A stretch of DNA of 63,993 nucleotides, the filler included, from Gonapodya sp. JEL0774 (lineage: Eukaryota), in NCBI GenBank assembly GCA_027604505.1. It is 3 parts of 3 records of this genome, joined end to end, with 100 filler letters (N's around TTAATTAATTAA, not from the genome) between each part and the next. Parts side by side here need not be neighbours in the genome. Positions count along the whole stretch, not along the records: positions 24,812 to 49,249 come from JADIIX010000229.1; 2 more parts are not named here. One strand, 5' to 3'. The notes under the pieces were generated by a model. The model ran no database searches. It had not been told where the DNA came from and saw only the letters and a program-made list of their open reading frames with translations. Positions 10,149 to 54,300 of the stretch are shown here, piece by piece (position 1 is the stretch's first letter; each line of letters starts with the position of its first letter). The position numbers and the translations under genes were made by a program.

Positions 10149-11255
10149 TCATCGACCCAATCTTCGCACCGCTCTGCTCCAGAGCCCCCGAATCTTGACT
10201 ACAGCTCCAGTAATGAACCCTTTCCCTTCTACAACTCTACGTCTCGTCGGCTCTTCTTGATGACGTTGCAAGATTCTCCCGGGAAGGTCTAGTCCATGTT
10301 GGCGGTCGTCGAAGAGTGTGGTGGTACTGGGAGTGCCGTTACTCCGAAAGATTACTGCTACAGGTGTTGCTGGGAGGAGCAGTGTCTCCCGTTTCTTTTT
10401 GCCCGCTGCGATGATTCGGTGAGCTCGTCGCAGCTTTGCTCGTACACCAGCGAACCCCTTTCGTTGGTCCGCGATGACCCTTTCAGTAGCGAGGATTTGA
10501 TTGTCCTTTTCATTGATAACCATCCGTGCCGGGGCAAGAGATGACCTGAGAAGGCATGACCTGTTCTCAGAGGCCTTCCTTCTCCACCGCAGCGGCGCGG
10601 GAAGAACCAGCAAGGTCGGATTTGAGACTTGCTATCTCCCTGCTCATCTCATCGGAAACTTCCAGCAACTGTCTGAGCTTTGTGACCGCCCAGAACCGTT
10701 CCCCGTCAATGGCAGCCATCCTGTCCGCATTTTCTTGCGCGCATGTCATCGCCGCGACAAGCAAACCATGAAAAATTTCCGAGACTTCCTCCAGCTTCAT
10801 TGACTCTGTGAGTGTCTCATCCAGCTGTGCTGTTGAGATCTCTGATTCCTTTTTGGCGGCGACGAGTTTCTTGCAGGTGTCCTCATGGAGGGCAAGGAGC
10901 TGAGACGAGTTGAGAACGGGTCCGTTGGGCCCCAGGGACAGCCCTGGCGGTTCATAGATCGTAATGGAGGATTAGGTTGGTGGTTCGGTGGCGGCCAGAG
11001 TCCGAGACCTCCGTGCTTTGGCGCAAACGGTGTGGGGGAAAGAGACTGGGGGGTCCAGTGAGTAGCCGGACGAACAGCATCCAGCGCTTTGTGTGTAGTT
11101 TTGCGATCCACCGATAATAGCGATCGACGATGGGCGGGCATGCGAGTGCGCTGAATTGGTGATGGAACGGACAAGATTATCTCAGACAGCCAGCTCTCGA
11201 ATTCGCAATCGCATCGCTTTCGGTACAGGTGAGCTGAGCGATACTTTGTAACCAC
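10149..11255 (-). pseudogene. Frameshifted copy of coiled-coil hypothetical protein (paralog of 11433-12455)
   Basis: Three ORFs in different frames (10797-11255, 10567-10800, 10149-10613) together match the single 340-aa ORF next door, e.g. GLWPPPN, ERFWA, REIASLKS, ARMVINEKD. Confidence 0.75.
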
Positions 11256-11432
11256 GAAATTGAACAGTGGAGTGAGGAGAGATTATGTAGGGTCCTTTCA
11301 ATACTTCGTTGTTATTCTTCAATAGCCAATAGTCAAAAGAGTTCTATTAATCTACTTCCAAACACTCTGAACCGAGGCTTTGCTGTCCACCACTGTTGAG
11401 TACTCTCTCCGCTCCATGTGTAACGCTGGCAC

Positions 11433-12455
11433 TCAGTTACCCAACCTTCCCACCAACCTGCTCCAAAGCCCCCGAACTTTGTTAACGGCGCCATTGACGA
11501 GTGCCTTTCTTTTCATGATACTCTCTCTCGGCGACTCTTCTTGATGACGTTGCAAAAGTTGCCCGGGAAGGTTGAATCCAAGTTGGCCCTCGTTGAAGAT
11601 TGTGGTGGTGCTGGGAGTGCCATCATTCGGAGATATCACTGCGACAGGTGTTGCTGGGGGGACCAGTGTCTCCCGTTTCGTTTTGCCAGCAGCGACCATC
11701 CGGCGAGCTCCTCGCAGCTTTGCTTTCAAACCGGCGATCCCCTTTCGTTGGTCCCCGATGACCCTCTCAGCGATGAGGACTCGATCATCCTTTTCGTTAA
11801 TAACCATCCTTGCGGCGGCCAGTGATGATTTGAGAAGCGTGACCTCGTGTCGGAGGTCTTGCGTCTCCACCTCTGCTGCACGGCGTGACGCAGCAAGCTC
11901 GGACTTGAGACTTGCAATCTCCCTGCTCATGCCATTGGTTACATCGAGCATCGCCCTGAGTTTTGCAATGGCCCAAAATCGCTCCCGCTCAATGGCCACC
12001 ATCGTCTCCGCCCCTTCCCACTCTCGCGTTGTCGCAGCGATGAGCAAGTGACGAAAAATATCAGAAACTTCTTGTACCTTGACAAGCTCAGTAATTGTCT
12101 CTTCCAGTCGTGCATTTGCGATCTCTGACACCTTGTTCGAGGCGACAAGTTTCCTACGAGTTTCCGCCAGCTGGGCCACATGCTCGGACGAGTCGGGAAG
12201 GGTTCCGTCGAGCCCAAATGAGAGCCCTGGCGGCTCACGAAACTTAATGGTCGATTTTGGTCGAGTGTTCGGTGGGGGCCAGAGTCCAAGAATCCCCCGT
12301 TCGTTGATTGCGACGACAGGATTCGCGATAGAGGTTTGGGGGCCTAGTGAGCGGCCGGACGAAGAGCATCCAGCGCTTTCCGAGAGCCTTTGCGATCCAC
12401 TGGTAACATCGATCGACGCATGACGAGCGGTTGGACGCACTGAATTGGTGAACAA
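11433..12455 (-). CDS. Hypothetical coiled-coil protein
   Basis: 340-codon open frame with heptad-like central region and an adjacent duplicate. Start codon uncertain. Confidence 0.55.
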   Translation of the reverse strand: MFTNSVRPTARHASIDVTSGSQRLSESAGCSSSGRSLGPQTSIANPVVAINERGILGLWPPPNTRPKSTIKFREPPGLSFGLDGTLPDSSEHVAQLAETRRKLVASNKVSEIANARLEETITELVKVQEVSDIFRHLLIAATTREWEGAETMVAIERERFWAIAKLRAMLDVTNGMSREIASLKSELAASRRAAEVETQDLRHEVTLLKSSLAAARMVINEKDDRVLIAERVIGDQRKGIAGLKAKLRGARRMVAAGKTKRETLVPPATPVAVISPNDGTPSTTTIFNEGQLGFNLPGQLLQRHQEESPRESIMKRKALVNGAVNKVRGLWSRLVGRLGN

Positions 12456-13281
12456 CAGACAACATTATGTCAGACAGTCCGTTATCGACTTCGCCGTCAC
12501 ATCTCTTTCGATAAAGTAGTTCCGCACCAAACGCAGGAGATAAACCCGAATGTCATTTATTCCTATTGTGCAAGGACTCACTGGACTGGCTCCAGTTTAC
12601 CGGAATGCCTCCCCATCCCGTCACAGGCACTCCAGGGGAAGACTCTGCCTCCCCACAGGCCCTAGAGACAAAGCGAGCTGGGACAAGCGAGCGATCGCTG
12701 TAAGAAGCCATGATAATTTGATTCTTCGTTGAATGAAAATGTGATGAGAAGATGGGCCTGTGCTTCTCAGGTTTCGCCGACCTGCTGCCTGAATCAAGGC
12801 GAGTTATTTATTTTACGGTTTGATTTGACTTGCCTAGGACTGTTACACTATCTGCTAGCAAAGGTTGCGCTATACGCTAGGCAATAGTAGGCAGCGAACG
12901 ACAGGCGGGACAGCAACTCTGTACGGCAATGGCTATTCGAAAGACTTTGAGCATTGGCGGAGGTCCCATTTGAAGATCATCGGCAACGCAAACAAATGCA
13001 ATGATGGTCAAGCGTTATTAATGTAAATAAAATTCCATTTGCTTTAGAATGTGCTCCCCATCATGCATCTTCACCTGAAGAGATTGGCTTCCTCCCTACG
13101 ATACAATATCACGGCGCGAGCCATCCACGACATTAAACATAAAGTAGTACTTTTTCAACGGAAACTGATGCGTTCAAATTTCGTTGACGATTGTTGATCA
13201 GGAGCTTGGTATTAATGTTGAAGTGGACCCTCAACTCCTACATTCCCCCGTAAAGAAGTGCATTTTCAAGCGCACCCGATC

Positions 13282-24711: not shown

Positions 24712-24811
24712 NNNNNNNNNNNNNNNNNNNNNNNNNNNNNNNNNNNNNNNNNNNNTTAATTAATTAANNNNNNNNNNNNNNNNNNNNNNNNNNNNNNNNN
24801 NNNNNNNNNNN
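24712..24811. other. Artificial contig linker / gap
   Basis: N-run, TTAATTAATTAA (stops in all six frames), N-run. Confidence 0.97.
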
Positions 24812-26913
24812 TCAAATCTGTCCTTCCAATGACTATATCCAAGTACTTAATATATCTCGGAGACAAAGTTTTGTAAGAGATGCTGGGACGCTGGCCTGTC
24901 CCTTGAAGCACCGAGACCCTGGAATTCATTCGCAGCGACAGAATGCGCACAAACAGTACGAGGTTCATGATAAAGAAACAAAATCTTCTAAGGCACGAAA
25001 TTACCAAAGAGAAAGTGAAGGGGTTAGGCAGAAGTGGTGGCTCAACGGGTCACTCGTTGGAAAACTGAGTGGATTCATGCAGCAGAGGTTCAAAGAACGG
25101 TGGATTTCCGTTCATCGTAGTCGGCGCATAGAGATTCTTCCCACATTTGCGAAACAAAGCGTTTATCTCAAACTGCCAAGTGATTCGGTCACCAGGCAAC
25201 ACCAACTTGTCCACACTTACCGAAGAAATTGATCACACAATCAAGCTCTCTATATCTACCAGCTCCTGTAGCCACCATTCATCAGCGCGAAATGATCAAT
25301 GTTACCCGGGAGCTGAGGAAAATGGTGATGGGAATCTAAATAGACAGTGGGAGCGCACCAGATTCATCAGGAACTTTGATTGCCGTTTTTGCGTCCCAAG
25401 TTCCAAAACGTATGTGTCGTTTCAGCTTGAGAGAATCTCGAACATCAACAACGAGGTTATTCTGCAACGTCTCTCTTGATTTCGCGATGAAAGATTAAGT
25501 CGCACTCGTCATATTTCGGACAATAGACGTACAGATGACATGACAGCATATGAACGATAAAGAAAACTCAAAGTTTACACCTTTAGTCGGCGTAGATCCC
25601 GGATGACGTAACATGTTCCGGGTACCATGACCGAGAAGTCGCAAGGCGTGCCCTCCCAAACGACGACGTGTATTAACAAGTTGGCACAAAAAGACACTGC
25701 TCATTGAATCACGGCACATTGTTGCGTCTTCAACTACAAGCAAATAGATTTACAGAGTGACACCAACAACTTTTACGCTAAACTGACCGTGTGTGATCTC
25801 ATATCACACTTCTCGAAGTCGTTCCCCCGATACCGCATTCGATTTTAAAATTGAAGGCTTACGGCTTTCGCTTCCCTTACTATGATATCTTTGTTAATCG
25901 TGTAGATGTCCCTCATGCACGTGCACGCTGGAAACGGAGAGGATTGTCAACCGGCATCACAACGTCGGGAATGCGGTGCTTCGCAATACGTACGATCCTC
26001 TCTATATCCTCCTGGGCATTTACCCGATATCGAGCAACAGCCGTTGTTGTAGAATCTGCAATGGAGGAAACAACGAATCGTTCAGTCAACATTTGCTTGG
26101 TCTTGTTCCCCACCATCTATTCCGGTCCCTGTTGGCTCAAATCGATGATCGGATCACTCCACGAAAACAATATGTTATATTGTGTGGCGTTTCTCTCGAT
26201 CCGTCGTTGTTGGCAGGTGAGATGTTGGCTGGGCATGCATATGCGTTTGAAGAACTGCAGAGGAGCGTGAGCGCTGATCCACATGCTGAGCTCCTCTTCT
26301 TACACAAGCGCGACCACCAGGACCGCATTTGAAATTAATTAATTGAATTACAGCTCAAGTAAAACAGCTCAAGTAAACTTTTTTAAAGAAGCCAATTAAG
26401 CTGCACTATGGCCATCGTCTATTTCATATCTGACAGAGTGATAGCCTGCAACGCATGACATATTCACGTGTTCACCGACGCAAGGTGGTTAAATGACCAT
26501 TGTCGCAAGCCAGAAACTTATCTAAGCAACTTGTAGCAGCTCCTCCGTTGTTCTCCTTGCGTGATCTCAAGGAGACTCGGGAAGCGCGGGGATTTTCCTC
26601 CCCCTGAGGTAATAAATGCCGTCCTTCCCAGTCTCCTCTCTCGAGTGCACCACCATCAAAACGTGCAACTTTCTCTTTATAGTTCGACAACTTTGCGTTT
26701 GCAATAAGAGTGACCGTGATTTGTTTGAGTGAGTCTTTGTTTGAATAGTCATAAGTCGAGGTGCCTGCAACCATAGTGTGATCGTGATTTCATTATCATT
26801 TTGCTTTCCCATTTCCATAAACGAATGCAAATTAATAGCTCTATTCCCTCCGTGACCACGAAATATCCCAACCACTATGTGCCATCACCGTCCGCCCGTC
26901 CGAACCCTCCTCT

Positions 26914-29900
26914 TCACCTTCCCCTACCCCTCCCTTCATTCTTTCCCATCTGCACCGAGAACGACAGTGCAACACGGGCCGCGAGCGCCCGTCGTTGGTC
27001 CTCGGGGAGGGTTTGGGCCATGTCTGTTTGGTGGAACACGCCGTTGGTGCGACGTGTATTAGTGGGCCGGGGACGCAATGGATGATGGACCGACATAAAG
27101 GTGCGCGTAGAGAAAGACGAGTTGGGAATGTAGAGGTTTGGTCAATACCGTTCTACCATTCCCCATCCCCTCGGCACCCCATCCTCACCTCTCAACCCCC
27201 TCAACTTCTCAAACGCTCTATCAAACCCTTCAAACACTTCCTCGGGGTCTCCTTCCTCGCCCAACCCGAGATCGAAACCCCCGGCGGCCACCCCTCCCCC
27301 TCCAAACCCTGCAAACGCTCCAAAATCGTCGTCGAATCCGTCCGCGTCCACGTCCACCTCTTCCAACCGATCCGAGCCTCCATCTCTTTCGAACTTGTCC
27401 CCGGAACGCACAGGCTCCATCCCCTCGAACGCGGCCACCCAGGCGGGGTTGGCGTCCGCGTTGACGTGGCCGTCACCGACCAACGTCGCAGAGGAGGAGG
27501 AGGAGCGGGGTAAGGTGGGGCCGAAGATGTCGAGGTGCATGGCGCGGACGGAGGAGCGGGAGGGGGTGTGTGCGGCTGGGTGGGGGTGGTTGGTGGTGGT
27601 GGTTGCGATGGGGCCCGCGCGGGTGGGCGGTGGGGGAGAATGAGGTGGCGGAGTATGTTAGCCAGATGTACCGACGACGAACAAACAAACCACCGCCCGA
27701 AAGACACTCTGCGCGCACCATTTTTCCCAATTAGGGCTCAAAAGAACACTACGCCCCTTGCCCCCCAAAATACCCACCTAGCCCTGGATCAATCTCCACC
27801 ATAGCCCTCACCACACTCTCAAACTCTCCAAACCCATCGTCATCACCTTGCTCGTCCCCGTCCCTCGCTTTCCTCCTCCCCACACCACCAGCGCCCGTCG
27901 CACGCACCCCAGGCTCACTACCCCCGCCACTCCCGGCCGGCTCCGCCCCATCCCACACATGCGACACTAACGCCTCCACAATGCGGGGCACGCCTTCCCT
28001 CTCCCTCCCCAGTTCTTCGTCCTCGTCTTCCTCCTCCCCGTCCTCCCCGTCCCCCCCACCTCCGCCCAAAACACCGGTACTCGGATCCACCACCACGTAC
28101 TCGAACCCCCGCTCGGCACACCAGTCACGGTAACTTTCGTGCAAGGCGGCACGGCGTTTTTCGTGGCCCTGGACCGGAGCGTGCCGTGACCCTGAGCCGG
28201 TGCTGATGGGGTCCGGCACGGGGCCCGAGTGGAGAGAGCCTGCCGGGTCGTAGGCGACGCAGATGGAGATAGAGGGGGAGAATTTGGAGAGGGTGGTGGT
28301 GTGGGGAGTGAGGTGTTTGAGGGTGGAGGGCTGGATTGGGAGCGGAGGGGGGATAGTGTGATGGCAAACAGAGAGACTGAGTGAGTAACGTTTGCCGCGC
28401 TAGCTGAGGCACAATCAAGAGTATCGAGTGTACAGTGGATGCAGTGTTTCTCTCTCTCACCCATGCATCATGCGGTCCCCCGTCCCCGCGACGTGCTTCT
28501 CTTTTCTATAGTTCCGATTCCCGAATGCAGAATGCCCAATGCCGATGATACAGGTATCCCACTCCCCACCACGGCCCCTACCACGGCACGCACGCAACAC
28601 ACACTGTCTGGAACGCATCACACAAAAAGAGCCGTCACCTCGGACCGCAATCCAGGACCACGAAGCACCGCAAACCCACAACCCCGCACGCCCCCCGGCC
28701 CACCCAAACTCACGTTCGCTGGATCGAACACGACGACCACCGCGTCGACCATGGGTCCGATGAGGTCCCAGTCTTGTGGTGTGAGGAGGAAGGGTGAGCT
28801 CGGGGAGTGTGGTGAGGTGGGGGAAGTTGGTGAGGCGAAGGTTGTGTGTGCGGGTTCGGAGGGGGAGGTAGAATCGGGAGCGGGAGGTGTGATGGACAAC
28901 CCTGTGCCGCCTTGGGTGTCGGGTCGGGCGGCAGTGGCACCTCCACCCTCACACTCGGCCGCCCCGTCAGTTCCAGCCCCCGCAGGCACCGCTGCCACCC
29001 CCGCACCTGCCCCGCCGACGTGCCCCTCCACCGCCGCCACCCAAAAGTCCAGCTCGGCCCTATAGTACTTGTTCTCCACCGACCAGGGCACAATGGCGCC
29101 GTTGGCGAGTGCGGATGAGGGCGAGGGTGAGGTGGAGGTTGGGGAGGATGGGGAATCGGACGAGGAAAGGAGGGTGTCGAGGTGGGGGAGGAGGGAGGGG
29201 GTGGTGGTGTGGAGGATGTCTGGTGGGTTGACGAGTGACAAAGTGAAAGGTGAAAGAGAAATTTACAACATGTCGAAAGGAAGTCGATGTGAGGAGCGAC
29301 GGGCGGGACCCAGCCACCACTCCAACAAACACACGTGAAAGCAAGAAAAAGCCAACAAGGAAAGTACATTTGTATAGGAGATCCCCCGACCGACTGTGTT
29401 CCCTGACCACAACCAGCAAGCAGAGCGCGTGGAGGACACACCAACGCACGTGTTATAAAACAACTACAATCCGACCAAGAACCAACACGAACCAACGAAA
29501 ACGACAACCAACGACCACACGAGCATCCAAGCACGACGCACACACACAAAAGTCCACGAAAAACAGAACAATCTGTGCCCCCACCGACCGGCCGGCCTCT
29601 CAACCCCCCGGCTGTCTCTGAACGGTGTTTCTCCCACGACCGACGGACGCACCTCTGATCAGATGGACGGGTAAGTGGACTGCTGAGGGATGTGAAGATG
29701 AGACGACGAGGATCTTGTTTCGGGGGAGGTCGAGGTCCGAGTCGACGTCGGCGTCCATGTCGGCATCTTCACCACCGGGATGAGCGTCCCAGGAGCCGGC
29801 ACCGTTTCCGCTCGCTTTCCCCATGCCGTTGCCGGTGCCGTCGCCGAGACCCAGGGAGAGGAGCGCCATGTCGTCTGCCAGCGTCAGCGTCGACTGTGTC

Positions 29901-29947
29901 TTTGCCGTGCTCGCCGTCGTCGCCAGCGGATCCGAGGAATTGTCCAT
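26914..29947 (-). CDS. AAGAB: Alpha/gamma-adaptin-binding protein p34 (AAGAB/Irc6-like), multi-exon
   Basis: LPRNKILVV, PWSVENKYYRAELDFWV, DAVVVVFD, WCAERGFEYV, EREGVPRIVEALVSHVW and C-terminal LPEDQRRALAARVALSF. Confidence 0.8.
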
Positions 29948-30344
29948 CTGGTGCGAGTCTCAGACTGTGTATGCGGTGTATGGATGTGCTGGATTCCCAG
30001 TCTGGACGTCTTTGCTCTGCTCTCTCTGCGTCGCGGGAAATCAGGTGAAAATGGGTGATCTCGTGTGAAATCAATTCTTTGTGTGAAATTGGGATGCACC
30101 CGTGGTCACTGCATAAACACAAACCTCCATTCCCACTCGCTGCATCTATTCTATGTATTTGCGCATTCAGTTTTCCCAAATCATGGCTATCTGAGTCAAT
30201 CTGTGCATGCTCGGGCCGCTCATTCAAATCTCTTTCCCCTCCGTGGTGCCTTGCTCTTTGTCACTCCGACCAAATCCATACAAACCTTCTTCGTCCGTTG
30301 GTGCAATCCACAGCCTATCCTGTGCTCTGTCACCTGCTTGTTCG

Positions 30345-31996
30345 AAACGGTTTAGCTTCCTTGAGAGAGCCGTGATCAGGGAAAGGTCCAAGGATTTGTT
30401 CGAGACTTGAAGACTTCTGCAGACGAATCCAATCAAATGATCCAGAAAACGGAGACGGGTACAGGAATACGCGAAAATTGACTTTTCAGGTTTACCAAGG
30501 TGGTATGGTGCGGTAGACGATTTTCGGGTATTCCATCACCCGCACCATCACCTGTGTGTGCGGAGAGTACATTCATTTGTACTTATGTAGTACGCACTCG
30601 GGAGAGGCGTGATACCTGATTCTCGAAAAACACTCTACAACTATGGTTTCAGAGGCTTTTGGCCAAAACTGGTGGTTTTGGAGCAAAACAGTTTTGGAGC
30701 TGCCAAATACGCCCCAATGAGATCATCCTCGTCTTTCAGCAAACAAAGCTCCACAGCATGACGGGTGTGCCAGCTGCATGCCAAACTGGCAGACAATGGA
30801 TGTCTATCACCACGACGAACGGTTCGTTGATGATCAACACGCTCAACAGATTCATCTCCATCTCTGTCGACGAAAATCCCCTCGTTGTTCTGTAATCTGA
30901 ACGAGAATTAAAATTCGTGTATTGGACACCCAATGAACGTGGGCAACCTATCACGCCATCGTGGACGTGCCAATTGGCCACCCAAATGCAACGCCCCCTT
31001 TGGATCCAGTTTCATTCAACAATTGGAACCCCAACTACAATCGCGGCTTCACCACGAACGAATATTACGAACGTGCTGGTTACTTGGCCAACGAGTGAGT
31101 TGAAAACCTGGCCGCAATTGTTTCTTCATTTTCTGAAACATGGATAAACCTTCCCTTTATTCCATATGACATCCTCCCTTTACTTTCATTCAGGAGAATC
31201 CGCGCAAAATGGATGAATCGGAATGCCCGCGTGAACGACTTCAACAAGAGTGTGAAATCGTACAAAACAGTGGATCACGCAGCCCTCCTGGTCGATCTTC
31301 AGTTCCGCCTGAGGGAACTTACTTATGTGATGAGGTTTTATGCAATTCGGCGGTGGCGGTGGTATGTTTCTTCTGCTTCCCTCTCAGTGGCTCAGCACAC
31401 ACAGGTTGACGCTTTTGTGCTTTCCAAGTCTGCGGCTTAGGGCTAAATCTGGTCAACAACGAGCTCTAGCCCAGCTCATGGACAAATTTTTAGGTGGTAG
31501 GAACCCGAACGAGTGTGTGATAGCGTGGGGTGCAGCAGAGTTTCATCAAGTAAGTGGTATTTTCGGCCTGTGTCCTGCGAGTGCCAGGTTGATGATTGTG
31601 ATACTTCCAACCCAGGCTTCCAAAGGACATCGGACGTCGCCAAATAAGCTGATCCGAAGATACTTTGTGACGCGAGGGGTGACTCTGATCTTGATAGATG
31701 AATTTCGCACCTCAAGGATCTGTTCGAGTTGCCACAACTTCTTTCCCAAGGACGAGGGGACGAAGCAGAGGCTGTGGGGTGTACGGTGAGTTTGATCGGC
31801 TGTGACAATGCTGAGGACGATGGATGCCAAGGAAAGCATCACACTTGTTCCCGCACTCCCCACCAGGTCATGCGCGACCATGAATTGTGGCATAACCTGG
31901 AATCGTGACAGGAATGCCGCCCGGAACATTTTGTACCTCTTCTTCCACGCCAACGCCACTGGCACCGTCGTCCGCCCCGGCCTCTTCCAACGGTGA
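30345..31996 (+). mobile_element. Fanzor (eukaryotic TnpB-like RuvC nuclease), spliceosomal-intron-containing; 5' half disrupted
   Basis: Spliced 3' half reads FTTNEYYERAGY...SYKT...FYAIRRWR..LR...QQRAL...VIAWG...KGHRTSPNK...LIDEFRTSRICSSC...LWGVRSCATMNCGITWNRDRNAARNI...RPGLFQR*. Introns at 31095-31193, 31362-31428, 31550-31615 and 31786-31866. Stops and frameshifts lie upstream of ~30945. Confidence 0.88.
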
Positions 31997-32183: not shown

Positions 32184-32346
32184 TGCACATTCACATTGCA
32201 CCTCGTGAATGTGCATAGGCTCCTCCTGGCGTTGGGCTCTCAGGGCCGACTGTGATCCGGGGTAGGGACCTCTAAGAATTACAGAACGGCATAAGACCCT
32301 TAGGAGTACAAAGCAGTGTCATATTTTGGTTGTGCATGTTATAGGG
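32184..32346 (+). ncRNA. Putative Fanzor omegaRNA scaffold / element right end (copy 1)
   Basis: Non-coding, ~190 nt after the Fanzor stop. Begins with a perfect 11-bp hairpin TGCACATTCAC/GTGAATGTGCA. Its 105-nt core is near-identical to 33875-33979 and the similarity ends sharply after TTATAGGG. Confidence 0.55.
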
Positions 32347-32478
32347 GCAACTACTAGATATGTATCAGCCAAGTCGAGCCGAATGAGTCACGAGTCACCA
32401 CCAGAAGCTCAGCGTTCCCTACACCTAGTCCAACCAGCACACCCACCTATACGCTTCAAATCAAGCCGAACACAAACG

Positions 32479-33395
32479 ATGCAATCACGCCTGTTCTCGC
32501 TTTCTTACGTATCCCGGGTATCGCCGGTGTCGCGTGCGCTCCTCTCCATACCCCAGCAGCCTCCACATTCCATCCACAAGCCCCACCCCCACTTCTCCAA
32601 ACGACCACGGAGCACAAGCGCTCGTGCACAGGGTCAAGCACGGGACCCGAAACCAGAGAAGACGGAGTACTTTATGGAGTCGGGCGAAGGTAGGTGGTTC
32701 GGTCTTCAAAAAGGAGCGGGACAAGCGAGGAGTTGTTTCCCGGTTTGCTCTCACGCTCGGTTATGTCACCCCGCGTCCCTTCCCCCTGCACGTCTTGGTA
32801 CCCCACTCGCCACAATCCACCACCACCCGCCACTCTTCCAAGACGCCTTCTCCCCCGAACCTGCCCATCTCGATGACGTTGCCGTCAAAGTTGAGACGAA
32901 CAAGGACTGGGTCATGGCGAGCGGGGAATGTGTGTTGAATGTACTGGGGGTGACAAGGGTGGGGGCAGGGGGCGCGTGTTCTGGCAACCCGCACTCACAC
33001 AACGGCTCCTCTCTTCACTGCTTGCGTCGCCATGTAGTGGGCATTCCTGCGCACCAAACGTCACCGGTTGAGAACGTCCACTCGTGAGCGTGTGAATGCG
33101 CGTGACGTGCGTTTTCCACATGATTTTCACCTCATCACCTGCTACCCATGCCTGTCACTGCCTGCCTTTTGCCACCTGCTTCTACAACCGACCCAGCTAC
33201 TCTCTGGACTCTGGCGAGACCGTCACAACCACAAATACTCTCCATGGTGACTCGGAGCTCACTCCAGCCGACAGTGAGACACGGCTGGACGGTCGTCCCC
33301 ACCGGGGCGTGGAATACGATATGGAGAGCGGGGAGCACGGTGAGTGGTGTTCGTGGAAATTGTGGAAGAGTAATTTTTGTGGGGGATCTGTGTGA
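32479..33395 (+). CDS. Small hypothetical protein with mitochondrial-targeting-like N-terminus, multi-exon; 3' end uncertain
   Basis: MQSRLFSLSYVSRVSPVSRALL... followed by exon-like acidic segments with a repeated MESGE/LDSGE motif. Confidence 0.45.
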
Positions 33396-33836
33396 TGAAG
33401 AAGAGGATCGAGGAGTGGGTGGTGGGTGGACCCCAAGGGGCAACGGAGTGGGGATTGGTGAATGAGGAGGAGCGTCAAAAAAGGGAGTAAGACCAAAACC
33501 CTGGGCCATTTGGAGTTTCGGGAACCCTCGCTGTGGTCGTTTATTCGCTTATGTGCTCTTCCCGAGTCCTGCGTACATTGTTTACTGACGGGAATCTCAT
33601 CCCACACCCTTCCCCGCCAATCTCCACCTGCCTGGCCCCGTTACGTCCTCACAGTCGGCAAGTCGGCTGAGTAGCTGAGAAGTGTTGGATGGTCCTCACT
33701 TTTTTTTTCGAATGTGGATTGTTTGGTGGGGTTCTTGGGTTCACGAGTACTGCGTGTCGGACTGATCTGCATGCTTCATGTAAATAGAAACATTTAGTGG
33801 TTCTTGGGGGGGACAACGTGATGGGAGGAAGGTGCC

Positions 33837-34029
33837 AATGGTGCACGGCTCCTCTGGCGCCGGGCTCGGCTCTGAGGGCCGACTGTGATCCGGGGTAGGG
33901 ACCTTTAAGAATTACAGAACGGCATGGAACCCTTAGGAGTACAAAGCAGTGTCATCTTTTGGCTGCGCATGTTATAGGGTCTATGTGTATGGCGAATGGT
34001 GCACGGTCTCCTGCTGTGGTGCCGTGCTC
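33837..34029 (+). ncRNA. Stand-alone putative omegaRNA scaffold (copy 2), 15-nt spacer and start of a third copy
   Basis: Direct repeat of 32208-32346, followed by TCTATGTGTATGGCG (33980-33994) and then AATGGTGCACGG..., which repeats the element's 5' end. Confidence 0.5.
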
Positions 34030-34070
34030 CCACCCTCCTCACCGAACCGTCATATTCTCAGCACAAACCA

Positions 34071-35036
34071 ATGCCCGCCAAAGCGAACCCCACTCCCGCA
34101 CCCACTGCGTCTAAAAAAGACGCCAAAGACGCCAAGAAAGACGCCAAGGACACCAATCCTACCGACACAGACGAGAAGCGCGGCGAGAAGAACCTCGACG
34201 AGCTCGACGATGCTTTCGAGGATTTCCCGGCAGACGGTGCGTGGGCTGGCAGGTGGTTTGTGGGGATAGGGTGTGCGGGGCGGGAGGGGATTGGGGGGAA
34301 TGGGGGGGAGAATGGAAACGGACGGGCGCTTCACTTGACGGTTTGCGCAACTCCCAGGAGTGGACAACGGTGGCCACGCGGCGGGACAAAGAGCGACCAC
34401 AACCCGGCTTTATTTTTTCCTCCCGTTGAAACGTGGGGCTCGGTTTTCATTCCCTTTCCCTTCCCTAAAAATGTCGCTCCTCTTCCCCGTCGACAGTCTA
34501 CGACTCTCCAGACGCCGACTCCGACCCCGCAAAGACGGCTCACGTGTGGGAAGACACGTGGGAGGATGAGGACCAGGTCGAGGATTTCGGGGCGGGGTTG
34601 AGGTGGGTTGTGTGTGGTGCAGACGGGGGCGAAGTGGGGCGGTCGGCAAGGCGTCGTTGTCGGGGTGGGAGATTGGAGGGAGGGCGAGGCTCGCGTGTGC
34701 CGTGCGGGACGTGAACAAGGAACGTGGGTCCTTGAGAGCCACGACGCAGCCCCCGTTCTGGACACTCATCGTCCGGGCTCGTTTATGTTACACCCACCCA
34801 TGCGCTTGACCACTTTACGGTGACGCATCACTTACCCATATTTCCCTACCCATCCCTTACCCCTTGTCCCCGCCACCCTCTTCACCCGCTTGCGTGCCTT
34901 TACCACCTGTTTTTCTCCTCCTTCAACCATCCACCCCCACCGGTTCCCACCCCATCCCGCCCCCCCTCATTCGCGCCCCAACCCTTACAGAGCCGAACAC
35001 GAGAAACTTGCCGGGCCACAGCCTATGAAGATATGA
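34071..35036 (+). CDS. SEM1: 26S proteasome subunit Sem1/DSS1, 3 exons
   Basis: LDELDDAFEDFPAD | ...HVWEDTWEDEDQVEDFGAGL | RAEHEK...QPMKI*. Confidence 0.88.
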
Positions 35037-38511: not shown

Positions 38512-40357
38512 ATGACCTCCTACCTCACAAAACACCGCCCAGGACGCACGATATTCGCCAATCCAGGACCTACGAATGTGCGATTTGGCGGACCTCGGTT
38601 GCTGTTTTGAAACCACGTCTTCTCATTGCTCGTGTTTCTTTCTCCCCCGCCGCCCTCCACAAACGATCCGGCTCAACTCCCTTGTTCCGCGATCGTGATT
38701 GCTCACATGTCATCGTACGACGACGACATTGTAGATTCCAGAGTCGGTCCTCCATGCCAGCGCGGTTCCGTCTCTCGAGTGAGCAGAGGAACCAAAATCG
38801 AAATCGGAGCGCATGCTCGCACCACCGTAGTCTCATCCCACGCTCTCTCTTTTCCTCACAACTCCCCTCTTGCGTTTATTACCCTGGTTCTCTTCTGGCC
38901 TTCCCCCCATGCCTTCTCGATATCCCGTTGTCTCAAGCTTCATGGATGAAGACTTCACCAACAACGTCTACCTCCCCTCAGTCGAGTACCTCAAAAAGAT
39001 CCTCAAGACTGAAACCGCCCAGATTTTCCTCTCCGCGTCGTCGGGAAATGGATCGTGGGAGTCGGTTCTGGTCAACCTCTTGTCTGCCGGTGACAAGATC
39101 CTCATCATCGAGGGGGGTTTCTTCTCGGATTTGTGGGGCTTTATGGCGGTATGTGGTCTTTCTCTGTTTCTTGCATGAGCAAACTCGAGCTTTCGATGCC
39201 CATCCTCACTACTCGTCCACCCAACCCGCCCCTTCTTCCCCCAGCGCAACCTCAGCCTCGAAACCCAAGTCCTCCCCACCCCCGTTCGCACTGGCCTGGA
39301 CCTCGACTCCCTCCGCACCACCCTCCTCGCCGACCCGGAGCACACCATCAAGGCCATCTGCGTGGTCCACAATGAGACGTCGACGGGCGTGACCCTCCCC
39401 CTTGGCGAGATCCGCCAGGTCATTGACGAGACGGCCCACCCGGCACTGTATCTGGTCGACACTATCAGCAGTCTGGCCAGCATTGATTTCCGTATGGACG
39501 AGTGGAAGATCGATGGTGTGGTGTGCGGGGGGCAAAAGGGACTCATGCTGCCCACGGGGCTTGCCATCTCCGCAGTATCGCCTAAAGGGTGGGCAGCATC
39601 GGCGACTTCCAACCTCCCCAAACACTACTTCAACTGGCGGTTCCAGATCCAACGCCTGCCGCACAAATCGTTCGCCGGGACCATACCCACACACATGATC
39701 TTCGCGCTCCGCGAGTCACTCCGAATCATCGAGGCTGAGGGTGGCGTAGACGCGGTCGTTGCAAGGCACAAGAGGCTCGCGGAGGGGGTCAGGCGGTGTG
39801 TCGCGTATTGGGGCAACGGAGGCACATCCACTCAGTTGGAGGGCGCGCCAGAGTTTTTCTGTCAGGACCCCACGCGGTACTCGGATTCCATCACAGCGGT
39901 GGTGATTCCTGGAGAGGGGAAACCAACCGAGGTGAAGAAGGCATGTTTGGAGCTTGGAGTGAGCTTGGGTGGTGCGATCGGGAAGTGGACGCAGGGCAAG
40001 GTGATCAGGATTGGTCACTTGGGTAAGTGTCTGATGATGAATCTCTGTCTGTTCTGCTTTTGTGTCGTTGTGGTTTTGCTACTTTTTTGTTCAGAGGGGG
40101 GTGAGAACTCTACTTCGAACCGTCTTACCATAACACACGTCCTCCCCTACCCTTAAGGCGACAACAACGAATCTTCCATCCTCGCCATCCTCGCCACCGT
40201 TGAAACCGCCCTCAACATCACCGGAGTACCTCACCACGCCGGCGGTGTGACACAGGCCGTAAAGTATTTCGCGGAGGCGAAAAAGACGGCCAAGAAGGCG
40301 GCCGAGGCGGCGGAATCCGCGGAGCCGGCGCAAGTGAAGACGAACGGACACGCGTGA
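38512..40357 (+). CDS. Class V PLP aminotransferase (serine/alanine-glyoxylate aminotransferase-like), copy 1
   Basis: PGRTIFANPGPTN, VVHNETSTGV, VDTISSLASIDFRMDEW, GGQKGLMLPTG (PLP lysine), IRIGHLG. Ends TNGHA*. Confidence 0.92.
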
Positions 40358-41227: not shown

Positions 41228-41460
41228 ATTCTAGAGTAGGTCCCCCATACCAGCGCGGTTCCCTCCCTCCACACGGATCCAAAGTCGGACCATATCCTTA
41301 CACCATCTCATCTCATTCCCCTCTCCTCACGGCCCCCTCTAGCATTTTAATCCGTGGCGGTTGTCGGTTGTGATCTTCACACGATGGATTCTGGATATCG
41401 CTGTGCGCGAGCTCCTTGATGAAAACGTCACCAACAACGTCTACGTTCCCTCTGTCGAGT
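41228..41460 (+). pseudogene. Degenerate 5' fragment of the aminotransferase (third copy)
   Basis: AGAGTAGGTCCCCCATACCAGCGCGGTTCC matches copy 1 at ~38740. GATGAAAACGTCACCAACAACGTCTACGTTCCCTCTGTCGAG matches ~38946. Confidence 0.7.
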
Positions 41461-47529: not shown

Positions 47530-49114
47530 CTACAGCTTGCTCCCGGTCTCGCCAGACCGTGCTTCTGCAAAGAACCGAACCGCCTTGGTGACCCCACCCG
47601 GGTAGTGAGGAACTTTGGCGATGTTCAAGGCAACTTCGATGGTGCCAAGGACACCAAGAATGGATGATTCGTTGTTGTCCCCTGTTATGTGCAGCGGATG
47701 ATGAGTTGAGACACACACACAAAGCACGGTGCACCGTTCGACCCACCCAAGTGTCCGATTCGAATAATCTTCCCCTGTGTCCACTTTCCGATTCCTCCGC
47801 CAAGACTCACGCCCAACTCTAAGCTCGTCTTCTTCACCGCCTCGGGCTTCCCGACTCCCGGAATCAGCACCGCGGTTATCGAGTCCGAATATCTCGTGGG
47901 ATCCTGGCAAAAGTTCTCTGGTGCACCTTCCAACTGCTTCCCCGCGTCCCCTTTACCCCAGTGGTCCACGCACCGCCTCACACCCTCGGCCAGCCGGTGA
48001 TGCCTGGCGGTGACGGCGTCGACCCCTCCTTCGGCTTCGATCAAGCGCAGCGACTCGCGGAGGGCGAGTATCTGCTGTGTGGGCATGGTGCCGGCGAAGG
48101 ATTTGAAAGGGACGCGGGTGATGGCGACTTTGTAGTTGAAGTAGTGCTTGGGAAGGTTGGAATGGGCGGTGGCGGCCCACGCTTTGGGAGACACGGCGGA
48201 AAAAGCCAGACCGGTTTGGAGCATGAGGCCCTGTGTCGTTATGTGATGATAATGCGAGGGTGTTGATGAGGGGGGGCTGACTCCGTGGACGTGTATGTGC
48301 CGCCACGTGCAGCAAAAAGGTACTGGAACACACCTTCTGCCCCCCTCCAACGACCCCGTCCACTTTCCACTCGTCCATCCGAAAATCTATACTTGCCAGA
48401 CTGCTGATGGTATCCACCAAGAACAATGCCGGGTGGGCCACCTCGTCGATCACCTTCCTAATCTCTGCCAGGGGCAGGGTGAGACCTGTGCTGGTCTCGT
48501 TGTGGACCACGCAGACGGCCTTGAGCCGGTGAGCCGTGTCGGCCGAAAGCACGGTGCGGAGTTCGCCCAAGTCGAGGCCGATACGGGCGTTTGTGTGGAT
48601 GTACCGGACTTGGAGGCCCAGGTTTTTCTGTGGTGGGTCGGTCATCGGGTGGCCCCACCAGTGAGCATTGAGCATGCAGGCGGGGTTTTAACACAAGTTC
48701 GCACACCGGAATGGTCGAAGGCTCACCGCCATGCCCCCCCACGCCTCGGGGAAAATCCCGCCCTCGACCATGAGTATTTCATCACCCGAGGACAACAAGT
48801 TGACGAGCACGCTTTCCCACGCGCCGTGGCCCGAGGACGCGGACAGAAAGACCTGCCCTGAGGTGGTTTTGAGCACGCGTTTCAAGGCGGCCACGGTGGG
48901 GAGGTACACGGTGTCTGCGAAGTCGTCGCTTTGGGGGCTTTATGGGACGGGCATGAGAGCAATAGGGGAATGGAGAAGACGGGGAATTTTGATGGGGGAC
49001 GGAAGAGGGGGGCATCGGAGTTCCGGATGTGATTGGATCGGGTGGCACTATTCTCCAGAATAAAACTCACTCGAGGGACGGGATCGACGCGGCCTGCAAG
49101 ACCGAGTGTGGAAT
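47530..49114 (-). CDS. Serine/alanine-glyoxylate aminotransferase-like copy 2 with PTS1; first exon not found before the contig end
   Basis: Same motifs as copy 1 (VVHNETSTG, VDTISSLASIDFRMDEW, GGQK). C-terminus ETGSKL*. Confidence 0.9.
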
Positions 49115-49249: not shown

Positions 49250-49349
49250 NNNNNNNNNNNNNNNNNNNNNNNNNNNNNNNNNNNNNNNNNNNNTTAATTA
49301 ATTAANNNNNNNNNNNNNNNNNNNNNNNNNNNNNNNNNNNNNNNNNNNN
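49250..49349. other. Artificial contig linker / gap
   Basis: N-run, TTAATTAATTAA, N-run, preceded by a poly-G stretch. Confidence 0.97.
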
Positions 49350-50981: not shown

Positions 50982-51308
50982 TTTCAAAGCTGATGGGTGC
51001 GAACACGTTGTGTGCTGTCTGCTGCCGAAAGAGAAGGTGCTGAATCAGCCTGTGCCAAAGGGTCTTGTGTGATACCCTACCTGGTAACTGGACACAATGC
51101 GGACACCTCCGTGTGACACAGCCGATCCCAGATACGCATTCGTTTGTGGGTTTTCTCTCTGCAGAGCGGCGAGGGTGCCGGATCGCGAGAGTAGGAGACA
51201 TACCGATCGCAGAAAACACAGCCTGACTCGCATCCCGGCATCCAGTCGCAACGTACAGCCCATCTAGAAAACTTTAACACAACACCTCAACGGTACACGA
51301 TCAGCCAC

Positions 51309-54300
51309 ATGGCGGATGATGACGATGCTCGCAGTGACGCGGTCAACGTGAGCGCAGACACAGGGCGGAGCGTGGGACGAGGGGCCACACGGGGTCGGAG
51401 TCATCAAGGGGCGACCCCGCGGGGAGGCCAGGCTCGAGGCGCAGGCAGAGGCGGCGAGGGTGATAACAGAGGGCGAGGGAGGGGAAATACTCTGCAGGGA
51501 AGAGGGGGGAATGAACGGGGTGGTGGTGGAAGAGGTGATACCAGTAACTACAGAGGCGGCCGAGGGTCGGACCCCAGAGGGCGTGGAGACGGTCGTGGCG
51601 GAGGACACGACAATGGCCATGGTCGAGGTTACTTAGGAGGAGGCGGAGATCGCGGTGGAAGAGGGGCTGGAGGTGGGTCATTGGCCTCGCGCGGTCGTGG
51701 CCGTGGGGCCGACGGCACAGGTGGACAGCCGTGGCGCGGGTACAGCGGACGCGGCGGGGGTCGTGGGGCGGGTCTCGGCCCTAGCGGTGCCGGTGTGAGA
51801 GGCACCGACGCTGTGCACAGGTTCATTAAGCTGATGCGGTACGCCGGGCACAACATCGCGCGCACCATTGAGAGCAGCCGGGCGGAGTGGAATACGTGCT
51901 GGATGCACGCGCGCCACCTCTCCCCAGACGAGTTGCGCTCGCTGTTGACCGCCGTCGCAACCATTCCTTACTCTGCCCATGTCGAGGCGCCACCCCTGGC
52001 GGGACTGAGTGAGGCATTTGATGTCTTTAACTCGCAGACACAGAGTGTGCGCAAGTCTGATCCGACCGGTGCAATGGGGCAGGTTGAAATTGTATTCAAC
52101 GCAGTGCGGGTGAGTTCCTTTCATTTTGTGCCGAATGTCAGGAATAAGAATACAGATTGCGTATTATTGCTAGACACTGAGAACGTTCTCGTGGGATGCT
52201 GACGGAGATCAAGTCCGGCAGTGCTTGAGCAACGCTCTGGACGAAGCCTCCTCGGCACTGAAATCTTCCATCCCCGGTGAGTCCAGGTTCCTCGATCTCC
52301 ACAATTTGTTTCCCAACTGACTAGTTGTTCTGCCTCACCGAACCCTCACCCGTACACTAGATCACCGGATCCTTCAGGAGAAAATCAACGGGGAGCTCCA
52401 ACACCTCGAACGCCCGTGGTCCATCAAGACCATATCCAAAGACGCCGAGGAGGTTGTCGCCGCGCAGGCATCCTCGTTTTTGGAGGCGGAGGGCACAAGC
52501 AAAGCCCTCATTGCCGCCTCCAGGTGGAAAGACGCCAACGTCGGGTGGCTGTCCGACAGCCGATGGTTCCAGCCACCGTGCCTGCCCATCTTCCACGTGC
52601 CGGGTACCAAAACGGACGGCTTCTACAAGTCGCCCGAGGAATACTTTGAGACGGTGCTTCCTGTGTGGACGGGCCTCATGTTTCAGGATGGCAACAGCGC
52701 ACTGATCCCCAAATGCAAGTGGAAGGACGCGGCGTCTGGGAAGGATTGCGGGCATGTCCTGTGGCCCGTGGAAGAGCACGTACGTCGAGGACGTTGTCGC
52801 ACGAGGGGATGCGAGAACAGCTGCTCTGCTGTGTGCAGCAACCCGCACCACAACTCCGGCCTCTGTACGCCGTGCGCCGATAAGGTACGCGAGCAGCTCC
52901 GCGGACCACCAGGGCCGGGAGCGTCTACTCATTTGTATGATGGGACTGTGAACAGACTGGACCATGACGATCAGGTGTGGCTCGTGGGAATTGCGAGCCG
53001 GCGACCCCCACAGCAACCTATCCATTGGAAAACAACGGCGCGGCTCGCATCGCCCAATTTGGTCGGCGTTGTCAAGGTCGCGTACACAGGAGCGGGGCTG
53101 AGGATGTCCGATCGCATTTTTTGGGCGGAGGTGAAGCAGCACTCATATTCAGGACAGCCCGAGTTTGAGTACCGAGAGAGGGGCCAGCTTGTTGTCGCGT
53201 TAATCCACCAGGACGGGTCGGCGGAGAAGTACTTCCGGAAGGGGGACACTGTGGTGGTGATCGACTGCCTCACTTTCGCGCCAGAGTTCGTGCCCGTGCT
53301 GAATGCGGTGGAGAAACTGCGTCTCTTTTCTGTGCCGTTTCGCAACGGCGCTCTGCTGCATATGGCGGCCGGGTTGGCGGAGTCTACCGAGGAAGAACCG
53401 GTCTCGGATCAAGTTCGGGGCGCCGAAGTGCTTCAACTCGACGTGTCCGATGACGACATGGAGCAGCGAGTGGTGCAGATGCTTCGTGATTCTCAGTTGA
53501 TTCCGATCGTGCATATCAGAAGGTGAGTCATTGAGAGCTTGGGTGTGACGGAATTGAGATTTGAGATGAAAATGTCGGGTTATAGCAATTCCAGATGTCT
53601 TGCTGATCTCAAGACAAGACTTACTGCCCTTCTGAAATCCGCCACATTGGACGAGAAACAGCTGGATGCGTTTATTCAAGGATTTATCCATCCCGTCCAT
53701 CTCACGCAAGGGCCTCCGGGGACGGGCAAGTCCTACCTTGGCGTGGTGATGGTTCGAGCGCTACTGATTGTCAGAGAGCTCTGGATCGCCTCCGACCCAT
53801 CGGTTGGCCAGCCACCGATCCTCGTCCTCTCATACAAAAACCACGCTATCGACGAGTTCATGAAAGATTTGGTGACTATGGAGGCGAGCATTAAACAGTT
53901 TCCGTTTAGGCGCGGAAACATCAACAGCGTTGTTCGTATTGGATCTGGGAGTAAAGACCCAATCTTGCAGCCTTACACTGAAGGGCAGATGAAAATGACG
54001 ACGCCGCAGGTTACTGAGGCGCGAAGGAACCTGCTCGCTCGGCACGGACAATTGAAGGAGTACAGCGCCGCACGTGAGAGATTGAACGGATTTATTGAAC
54101 TAAAGATTGACATGTTAGCCGCAGAGGACGAGAAGGTCAGTCGACAAGCTTCGTACAAACTTGCGCAGTTTCTTGGAAGTTCGATTGCGCTTCTGAATGT
54201 GATGAAGGAAAGAGTCGAAGATGCCGCCTGGAAGCGCATGGTCGAGCTTGCTTCAAAGGGAGCCTTGCTTGGTGACTCGATCAGCGAGACAAACTTCTGG

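What the first reader, a model, noticed from the sequence alone, without database searches (positions are those of the whole stretch)
30345..31996. Intron-containing Fanzor RNA-guided nuclease hidden from the ORF track
Seen: removing four canonical introns (31095-31193, 31362-31428, 31550-31615, 31786-31866) joins short ORFs into one frame. It carries RuvC-II (IDEFRTS), a CxxC...CxxxxC zinc finger, RuvC-III (WNRDRNAARNI), plus EYY..G, SYKT, FY..RWR, VIAWG and a terminal RP..F.R. Known: these motifs characterise TnpB/Fanzor nucleases, and Fanzor1 from the chytrid Spizellomyces punctatus is an RNA-guided DNA endonuclease. Inference: this is a Fanzor lineage that has acquired host spliceosomal introns. 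No transposase is visible nearby.
Basis: partly seen in the sequence, partly recalled or inferred. Interest (0 to 1): 0.9.

Follow-up and report, generated by a model that had tools for sequence, protein, structure and literature searches.

The report
Headless intron-split Fanzor, spare tail copy
This is the back third of a four-intron Fanzor gene (an RNA-guided DNA cutter carried by jumping genes) that lacks its front part and first catalytic residue, so it is predicted to be a dead copy of a kind already catalogued in the same fungal genus, while its likely guide-RNA tail occurs a second time 1.6 kb away.

Summary
The four introns and all motifs are real. The spliced frame (30946-31996, 245 codons) is 59% identical, with 2 gap positions in 245 columns, to Gonapodya prolifera KXS17374.1, which Saito et al. 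2023 already list as Fanzor1; each proposed junction is the best-scoring choice against it. But the gene is headless: homology starts just after the RuvC-I Asp, and nothing matches residues 1-551 of a close paralog (REC/WED lobe, RuvC-I) anywhere in the window; 30345-30940 is not Fanzor. Downstream, a 112-nt non-coding block (32235-32346) recurs at 33868-33979 (93% identical), both ending at the same base: a candidate right end and guide-RNA scaffold, plus a protein-less copy. Both copies sit between short direct repeats (7 and 12 bp); the second carries 15 extra bases at its 3' end. This is the 5'-truncated, variable-TSD signature described for Chlamydomonas CRe-1 Fanzor elements. Intron-bearing Fanzors, partial copies and protein-less loci are all published, and this scan noted similar dead fragments on other genomes. 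Verdict: a nuclease-dead, front-truncated Fanzor1 copy; low interest, with the insertion signature as a modest lead. Splicing and RNA expression were not tested.

The parts
30941..30947 (+). Left copy of a 7-bp direct repeat (GGGCAAC), candidate target-site duplication; its end coincides with the start of Fanzor homology
   Evidence: chance 0.6-1.9% depending on search window
30946..31094 (+). First retained exon piece; begins just after the RuvC-I Asp position of homologues; no start codon and no splice acceptor in front of it
   Evidence: 48 of 49 residues identical to P0001 aa 552-600, 27 of 46 to P0002; AG only at 30904 and 31008 within 30880-31020
31095..31193 (+). Intron 1, 99 nt, GTGAGT...CAG
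   Evidence: the same 33-codon stretch is absent from P0001 and P0002
31194..31361 (+). Exon with SYKT and FY..RWR (helical region between RuvC-I and RuvC-II)
   Evidence: 27 of 34 to P0001, 28 of 55 to P0002
31362..31428 (+). Intron 2, 67 nt, GTATGT...AAG (shifts the frame if retained)
   Evidence: best of 18 frame-keeping alternatives
31429..31549 (+). Exon with VIAWG strand
   Evidence: 39 of 40 to P0001, 24 of 38 to P0002
31550..31615 (+). Intron 3, 66 nt, GTAAGT...CAG (in frame, no stop)
   Evidence: best of 12 alternatives; retention lowers the score 773 to 741; the P0001 gene model runs into a similar sequence at the same place
31616..31785 (+). Exon with RuvC-II Glu (IDEFRTS) and first Cys pair of the zinc finger
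   Evidence: 35 of 56 to P0002; PF07282 E 0.0015, under the curated cut-off
31786..31866 (+). Intron 4, 81 nt, GTGAGT...CAG, splits the zinc finger
   Evidence: best of 8 alternatives
31867..31996 (+). Last exon: second Cys pair, RuvC-III (WNRD), terminal RP..F.R, stop
   Evidence: 30 of 40 to P0002; PF07282 E 0.00018, under the curated cut-off
32184..32215 (+). Perfect 11-bp hairpin (10-nt loop) just before the conserved end block
   Evidence: sequence, fold
32220..32346 (+). Conserved non-coding block, candidate element right end and omegaRNA scaffold (core 32235-32346); similarity to the second copy stops after TTATAGGG
   Evidence: no Rfam family; folds no better than shuffles
32345..32351 (+). 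Right copy of the 7-bp direct repeat; the bases from about 32345/32347 on would be the guide if the block is an omegaRNA
   Evidence: guide role inferred from Saito 2023
33837..33848 (+). Left copy of a 12-bp direct repeat (AATGGTGCACGG) around the second, protein-less copy
   Evidence: 12-bp match, about 1 in 20,000 random window pairs; only two occurrences in the window
33849..33979 (+). Second copy of the end block with no Fanzor coding sequence (93% identical over 112 nt)
33980..33994 (+). 15 extra bases between the shared end and the right direct repeat: guide-length, candidate flank carried over from a donor copy
   Evidence: no match with fewer than 3 mismatches elsewhere in the window
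33995..34006 (+). Right copy of the 12-bp direct repeat, 65 nt before the start codon of a SEM1/DSS1-like gene

Best explanation
This is the 3' third of an intron-containing Fanzor1 gene that lacks the recognition lobe and the RuvC-I aspartate, so it is predicted to be nuclease-dead, and it likely arrived as a front-truncated DNA copy of a Gonapodya Fanzor transposon. Shown: four GT-AG introns, an open frame with RuvC-II, zinc finger and RuvC-III, the missing front, a conserved 3' block present twice with a common end, and direct repeats around both copies. Inferred: copying started at the right end and stopped early (one-ended copy-and-paste by a transposase supplied from elsewhere, as proposed for CRe-1), and repair of a staggered break gave target-site duplications of variable length; because the introns are still there, the template was DNA or unspliced RNA, not mRNA. 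Inferred, weaker: the conserved block is the omegaRNA scaffold, so both copies could only act as guide-RNA donors for full-length Fanzor paralogs encoded elsewhere in the genome.
For: Spliced frame vs full-length G. prolifera protein 59%/245 columns/2 gap positions, listed as FZ1 by Saito. A profile of the 11 homologues ranks SpuFz1 (E 9e-19), PpFz1 (2e-14), GtFz1 (1.5e-10) first among solved structures, then Cas12g/Cas12f/Fanzor2/TnpB. Homologues P0001, P0002, P0003, P0005, P0011 carry the RuvC-I DP[G/N] motif; the window copy starts a few residues after it. No match to P0001 aa 1-551 in the window although the retained exons match it at 48/49, 27/34 and 39/40 residues. No assembly gap near the break (N runs only at 24712-24811 and 49250-49349). 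In the 1,050 bases upstream only 2 words of 7 or more bases match the 3' end zone, and one sits exactly at the homology break. 5'-truncated, 3'-intact, multi-exon Fanzor1 copies with 7-19-bp TSDs are described for CRe-1/2/3; TIR-less copies with 11-12-bp TSDs for fungal MCi-2.
Against: Only two copies of the end could be compared; no whole genome was held. The 7-bp repeat alone has a 0.6-1.9% chance rate and was spotted after the fact. The sequence at and after the right 12-bp repeat resembles the element's own interior (19 of 26 aligned columns), so copy 2 could be a local partial duplication. The block folds no better than shuffled sequence (z from -0.51 to +0.62 for the six folds; -1.79 and -0.75 for the longer stretches) and starts ~220 nt after the stop, farther than in SpuFz1. 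The retained frame and splice sites show no decay, which fits a young dead copy but also a selected one.
Confidence: 0.72

Rival explanations
1. The fragment was not inserted truncated: a once complete element lost its front by deletion or was interrupted by unrelated DNA (30345-30940), and the 7-bp repeat is coincidence. The copy is dead either way.
For: 7-bp repeat has a 0.6-1.9% chance rate; partial and internally deleted Fanzor loci are common (19 of 42 S. punctatus loci full-length; CRe-1 internal deletions); the 600 bases upstream are of unknown nature and lower in G+C (0.47 vs 0.52).
Against: No remnant of the front of the gene and no terminal repeat of the right end upstream on the 6 kb of contig; the repeat ends exactly at the break; the second copy shows a 12-bp repeat in the same geometry.
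Confidence: 0.13
2. The 112-nt block is not part of the Fanzor element but a separate small mobile or non-coding element that landed twice in this neighbourhood.
For: No Rfam match, no structure signal, 220 nt from the stop codon; no third copy found in metagenome contigs (1 hit, a chance 20-mer with unrelated flanks) or viral contigs (0).
Against: No direct repeat of 7 or more bases encloses the first copy of the block alone (best 6), whereas the 7-bp repeat encloses gene fragment plus block; position and sharp common 3' end match what is described for Fanzor RNAs.
Confidence: 0.1
3. The locus is a complete, active nuclease whose front exons were missed or lost by misassembly.
For: The retained part is intact, with no stop or frameshift in 245 codons; an Asp lies upstream in frame at the RuvC-I distance (30924-30929 region); reads could not be checked.
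Against: That Asp is separated from the exon by a stop (30934-30936) and its context is unlike the paralog's; no acceptor AG between 30905 and 31007; no homology to the paralog's first 551 residues on this contig, apart from one weak hit (E 0.03, 23% identity, interrupted by a stop) to a distant homologue P0011.
Confidence: 0.04
4. The fragment is kept by the host as a short, catalytically dead RNA- or DNA-binding protein started at the internal ATG (31213).
For: Open frame and intact splice sites; domesticated dead TnpBs exist in bacteria (search listing only, PMC10705468).
Against: The break removes WED/REC and the first RuvC strands, which bind the guide and form the core (Xu 2024 passages); the part in front of the ATG is as well conserved with the paralog as the part behind it (48 of 49), as expected of a recent copy.
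Confidence: 0.03

Closest known systems
Gonapodya prolifera Fanzor1 KXS17374.1 (M427DRAFT_133504), listed as FZ1 in Saito et al. 2023, PMC10432273, supplementary file 3 (row seen)
   Same: 59% identity over the whole retained part; same motifs and C-terminus; its 3,489-bp span for 845 codons implies about 950 bp of introns (inference from the listed coordinates)
   Different: It is full length with the RuvC-I Asp (DPN); the window copy covers only its aa 600-844
Gonapodya sp. JEL0774 proteins HDU93_002717 (KAJ3336482.1) and HDU93_001104 (KAJ3337404.1), both annotated hypothetical
   Same: Close relatives (48/49, 27/34, 39/40 identical residues for the first; 46% for the second); the first appears to share introns 2 and 3, which its gene model misreads
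   Different: Both keep the RuvC-I SCDPG motif; the first keeps the N-terminal lobe; their database models miss the RuvC-II region or the last exons
SpuFz1 of Spizellomyces punctatus and its partial and ghost Spu-1 loci (Saito 2023; PDB 8gkh)
   Same: Best solved-structure hit of the family profile; partial genes and protein-less end-bearing loci beside full copies
   Different: SpuFz1 is a single ORF between 30-nt inverted repeats with the RNA right after the stop; here four introns, no inverted repeat found, block ~220 nt after the stop, and the protein-less copy has only the right end
CRe-1/2/3 Fanzor1 elements of Chlamydomonas reinhardtii (Bao and Jurka 2013, PMC3627910 section 8; CrFNuc in Jiang 2023 section 10) and MCi-2 of Mucor circinelloides (section 12)
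   Same: Multi-exon Fanzor1, 5'-truncated and 3'-intact copies, variable TSDs of 7-19 bp (CRe), TIR-less copies with 11-12-bp TSDs in a fungus (MCi-2), stand-alone RNA copies
   Different: No TTTT or ATAATT target motif at the two sites here; no link to a Helitron2 or any transposase could be shown
Replitron-1 insertions of C. reinhardtii (Craig 2023, PMC10288648, passages)
   Same: Fixed right end, extra donor-derived bases after it, variable TSD, as in the second copy here
   Different: Replitron-1 encodes a HUH transposase, has terminal direct repeats and no Fanzor

Membership tests
Fanzor1 nuclease (intact) | RuvC-I catalytic Asp in a DPG motif (first D of the Bao-Jurka motif) | tested here: not met
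   Homology starts a few residues after it; profile positions 1-363 unmatched in the window; definition
Fanzor1 nuclease (intact) | N-terminal REC and WED domains, length about 600-850 aa | tested here: not met
   No match to P0001 aa 1-551 or P0002 aa 1-599; 245 codons retained
Fanzor1 nuclease (intact) | C-terminally shifted RuvC-II Glu followed by [TS][TS]xx-C4 zinc finger | tested here: met
   IDEFRTS 31694-31714, Cys pairs 31721-31732 and 31871-31888; aligns with PpFz1 LIDEFRTS
Fanzor1 nuclease (intact) | RuvC-III RD motif 5-50 residues after the zinc finger | tested here: met
   WNRD at 31898-31909
Fanzor1 nuclease (intact) | Closer to Fanzor1 than to Fanzor2/TnpB/Cas12 | tested here: met
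   59% to a catalogued FZ1; homologue profile ranks three Fz1 structures first; no tree was built
Fanzor1 nuclease (intact) | omegaRNA encoded at the right end, guide from the flank | tested here: inconclusive
   Conserved block with sharp 3' end in two copies; no structure signal; expression not tested
Fanzor1 nuclease (intact) | TAM-dependent RNA-guided dsDNA cleavage | not testable with these tools
   Needs biochemistry; predicted absent for this copy
Spu-1-type ghost element | Both inverted repeats around a conserved ~550-nt interior without Fanzor ORF | tested here: not met
   Second copy is ~145 nt with only the right-end block; no reverse complement of the end in the window
CRe-1-like one-ended Fanzor1/Helitron2 element | 5'-truncated, 3'-intact copies flanked by 7-19-bp TSDs | tested here: met
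   2 of 2 copies: 7 and 12 bp; small sample, caveats in the Against line
CRe-1-like one-ended Fanzor1/Helitron2 element | Ends shared with an autonomous Helitron2 (ATIRs, terminal hairpins) and a fixed target motif | not testable with these tools
   No genome held; the left end is absent; the two target sites share no immediately adjacent motif

The most novel reading that the evidence does not exclude
Gonapodya Fanzor1 elements spread by a right-end-anchored copying route that can carry the donor's 15-base guide along: the second copy would be a complete omegaRNA unit (scaffold plus foreign guide) dropped between 12-bp duplications just upstream of a host gene, so that guide RNAs multiply on their own and keep pointing at the donor's site. 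It would be a fungal case of the fuzzy-end plus variable-TSD signature that Craig (2023) saw only in Chlamydomonas and tentatively blamed on Fanzor cuts, in a system where that idea could be tested by comparing all copies in one genome.
Probability: 0.2. Interest if true: 0.6.

Novelty: new member of a known kind. Interest (0 to 1): 0.25.

Why it matters
As a gene it matters little: a dead fragment of a family already catalogued in this genus. It is useful in two small ways. Its exon structure corrects the database models of the Gonapodya sp. JEL0774 relatives, one of which (HDU93_002717) keeps the front lobe and RuvC-I and may be a complete, untested Fanzor1 once its last exons are called; and the twice-seen 3' block gives a concrete candidate for that enzyme's guide-RNA scaffold. 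If the insertion signature holds genome-wide, it bears on the open question of how transposase-less Fanzor1 elements move and why some HUH-type insertions have variable target-site duplications.

Tried and rejected
No whole genome is held, so paralogs could not be counted. Sequencing runs, kind RNA: none was listed, so splicing was not checked against reads; this is no evidence either way. Upstream 30000-30946 read in six frames through stops gave no Pfam family below E 0.09; the 91-aa frame 30620-30892 had 0 of 23 candidates at E<=1; a 6-phosphogluconolactonase-like hit at 30721-30897 (E 0.015, 25 residues) was judged chance. Related loci: none in viral contigs with P0002; 0 of 50 pattern matches confirmed in metagenome contigs with P0003. 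DNA patterns from the end block: 1 metagenome hit, a chance 20-mer; 0 in viral contigs. Rfam: 0 at gathering score; 4 weak, unrelated matches at E<=10. Two-sequence consensus fold: 1 of 37 pairs with a change on both sides, in a loosely aligned part; uninformative. phmmer of P0001 and P0002 alone against solved structures found no Fanzor; only the profile did. Structure models of P0002 were poor (mean pLDDT 36 and 45); Foldseek on the better one put SpuFz1 and PpFz1 first (E 6e-5 to 5e-4, TM under 0.25) and VIA-align gave TnpB at Z 6.8, within its background range: weak, not relied on. Candidate guides had no match with fewer than 3 mismatches elsewhere in the window. The bacterial promoter scan is not relevant to a fungus. 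Main-text search for Fanzor plus Gonapodya: 0 papers, but the supplement of Saito 2023 has it; the 2 supplementary files of Jiang 2023 had 0 hits. One Saito file (scanned PDF) could not be searched, and the supplements of the Yoon preprint, Bao and Jurka, Xu and Craig were not seen; they may list Gonapodya loci or RNA scaffolds.

Full report
Setting. The window is eukaryotic, with short spliceosomal introns, and is made of three contigs joined by N linkers (24712-24811, 49250-49349). No whole genome is held. The nearest proteins are from Gonapodya (Monoblepharidomycota; phylum name recalled): HDU93_002717 of Gonapodya sp. JEL0774 (P0001), G. prolifera KXS17374.1 (P0002) and HDU93_001104 (P0003). 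I infer a Gonapodya-like fungus; I did not establish the exact source.

The observation. All four introns have GT...AG ends at the stated places. It aligns to P0002 at 59% over 245 columns with 2 gap positions (E 5e-96) and to P0003 at 46%. The P0001 model lacks the intron-1 stretch and runs into sequences like the ends of introns 2 and 3 at the same places, so those introns predate this copy (inference). Splicing itself was not observed.

Family. Unspliced pieces give only sub-threshold PF07282 hits and a weak PpFz1 hit (E 0.028). P0002 passes PF07282 (E 8e-12). A profile of the 11 homologues found with the window piece and with P0001 ranks SpuFz1, PpFz1 and GtFz1 first among solved structures (E 9e-19, 2e-14, 1.5e-10), followed by Cas12g, Cas12f, Fanzor2 and TnpB. 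The Atlas places P0002 and the window piece next to PF07282-bearing clusters of giant viruses and eukaryotes. Saito et al. list KXS17374.1 as FZ1 with a 3,489-bp span, so an intron-bearing Gonapodya Fanzor1 is already catalogued.

Homology begins at 30946, a few residues after the RuvC-I motif found in 5 of 5 homologues checked (DPG in four, DPN in P0002). P0001, which matches the retained exons at 48/49, 27/34 and 39/40 residues, finds nothing for its residues 1-551 in the window or on the 6.1 kb of contig upstream; P0002, P0003 and P0005 likewise; P0011 gives one weak hit (E 0.03, 23%, crossing a stop), which I count as chance. A five-protein profile hits only positions 364-608 of 608. There is no acceptor AG between 30905 and 31007, and the first in-frame ATG is at 31213. 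SpuFz1 needs D383, E541 and D606 and a REC lobe that clamps the target (Xu 2024, passages); the equivalent of the first Asp and the whole REC lobe are absent, so this copy is predicted to be inactive. The stretch 30345-30940 is unassigned.

The 3' end. A 112-nt block at 32235-32346 recurs at 33868-33979 (93%), with looser similarity back to about 32220/33849 and an abrupt end after TTATAGGG. Fanzor RNAs come from the non-coding region abutting the right end, with the flank as guide, and occur as stand-alone copies (Saito passages; Jiang section 10), so this is the natural scaffold candidate. Against it: no Rfam match, folding energies within the shuffled range, and no third copy available.

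Insertion signature. GGGCAAC lies at 30941-30947, ending at the homology break, and at 32345-32351, starting at the shared end; random window pairs reach 7 bases in 1.9% (25x25 nt) or 0.6% (16x16 nt) of trials, and only 2 words of that length link the 3' zone to the 1,050 bases upstream. The second copy lies between two AATGGTGCACGG (33837-33848, 33995-34006; about 1 in 20,000 trials), with 15 unassigned bases between the shared end and the right repeat. The target there resembles the element's interior (19 of 26 columns): this fits homology-guided joining of the truncated 5' end, but also a local partial duplication. Bao and Jurka describe multi-exon Fanzor1 elements CRe-1/2/3 as frequently 5'-truncated, 3'-intact and flanked by 7-19-bp TSDs (section 8, read whole), and fungal MCi-2 as TIR-less with 11-12-bp TSDs (section 12, read whole; an earlier scan note pointed me to it). 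Craig reports donor-derived fuzzy right ends with variable TSDs for Replitron-1 and suggests, tentatively, a role for Fanzor cuts (passages). Three papers held all of Fanzor, Helitron and fuzzy, seven held Fanzor, target site duplication and truncated; I saw none about Gonapodya in these listings.

How it most likely works. Shown: exon-intron structure, missing front, duplicated end block, flanking repeats. Inferred: a Gonapodya Fanzor1 element was copied from its right end by a transposase encoded elsewhere; copying stopped just short of RuvC-I at this site and after ~130 bases at the second; staggered breaks gave the duplications; retained introns argue for a DNA or unspliced template. The copy makes no nuclease. 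Its only plausible activity is to supply a guide RNA to intact paralogs, which is untested. I put 0.72 on this reading, about 0.9 on the copy being a dead Fanzor1 fragment by any route.

Novelty. Intron capture by Fanzors is in the abstract and results of Jiang et al. 2023 (passages); partial and ghost loci are in Saito et al. 2023 (19 of 42 S. punctatus loci full-length, 134 ghosts); the defining motif is from Bao and Jurka (passages; section 15 read whole) and the DPG/shifted-Glu signature from Yoon et al. (bioRxiv 10.1101/2023.08.09.552727, passages). Earlier notes of this scan report similar dead or truncated Fanzor pieces on other genomes; none exist for this genome or this block. The locus fails two defining features of an intact Fanzor1 and is filed as a Fanzor1-derived truncated copy: a new member of a known kind, interest 0.25. 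The bold reading, self-spreading scaffold-plus-guide units, rests on one 15-base insert and gets probability 0.2.

Noticed in passing
window 24712-24811 and 49250-49349: N runs with a TTAATTAATTAA linker: three contigs are concatenated, so neighbourhoods across these points are artificial.
   Followed up: yes
window 32351-32479 and 34006-34071: Both insertions end 128 and 65 bases upstream of the start codon of the next plus-strand gene (an unidentified gene; a SEM1/DSS1-like gene, PF05160 E 1e-5), in the same orientation; possible preference for promoter DNA.
   Followed up: partly
window 30936-30941 and 33815-33820: The hexamer AACGTG occurs just upstream of both insertion sites, but at different distances from the duplications (adjacent vs 16 bases); possible target motif or chance.
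   Followed up: no
window 30456-30542: 28-bp imperfect inverted repeat (79%, 31-nt loop) in the unassigned stretch upstream of the fragment.
   Followed up: no
window 26900-29947, minus strand: Intron-split upstream neighbour with acidic, low-complexity segments; resembles an adaptin-binding p34/AAGAB-type gene by recall only; no Pfam support for the three frames scanned.
   Followed up: partly
window 39179-40153 (+) and 47688-48687 (-): Two inverted paralogs (71-76% DNA identity) of what looks like a class-V serine/alanine-glyoxylate aminotransferase (name recalled, not scanned), with a further partial duplicate near 41228-41460.
   Followed up: no
window 9982-12464, minus strand: Tandem duplicate genes 1.28 kb apart (71-77% identical) for a coiled-coil-like protein with no Pfam match.
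   Followed up: partly
window 7762-9948, plus strand: Secreted-type protein with a jacalin domain and two ricin-B-type lectin domains, preceded by what may be an endonuclease/phosphatase domain (recalled).
   Followed up: partly
window 51195-63222, plus strand: Very large multi-exon gene or gene pair with an SF1 helicase (AAA_11), many Cys/His repeats and several AAA/AAA_lid_6 modules, reminiscent of NFX1-type zinc-finger helicases with CbxX-like ATPases (recalled).
   Followed up: partly
P0001 (KAJ3336482.1) and P0003 (KAJ3337404.1): Database models of two Gonapodya sp. JEL0774 Fanzor1 relatives appear mis-spliced: the first ends inside intron 3, the second skips the RuvC-II/zinc-finger segment; both are named hypothetical protein.
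   Followed up: partly
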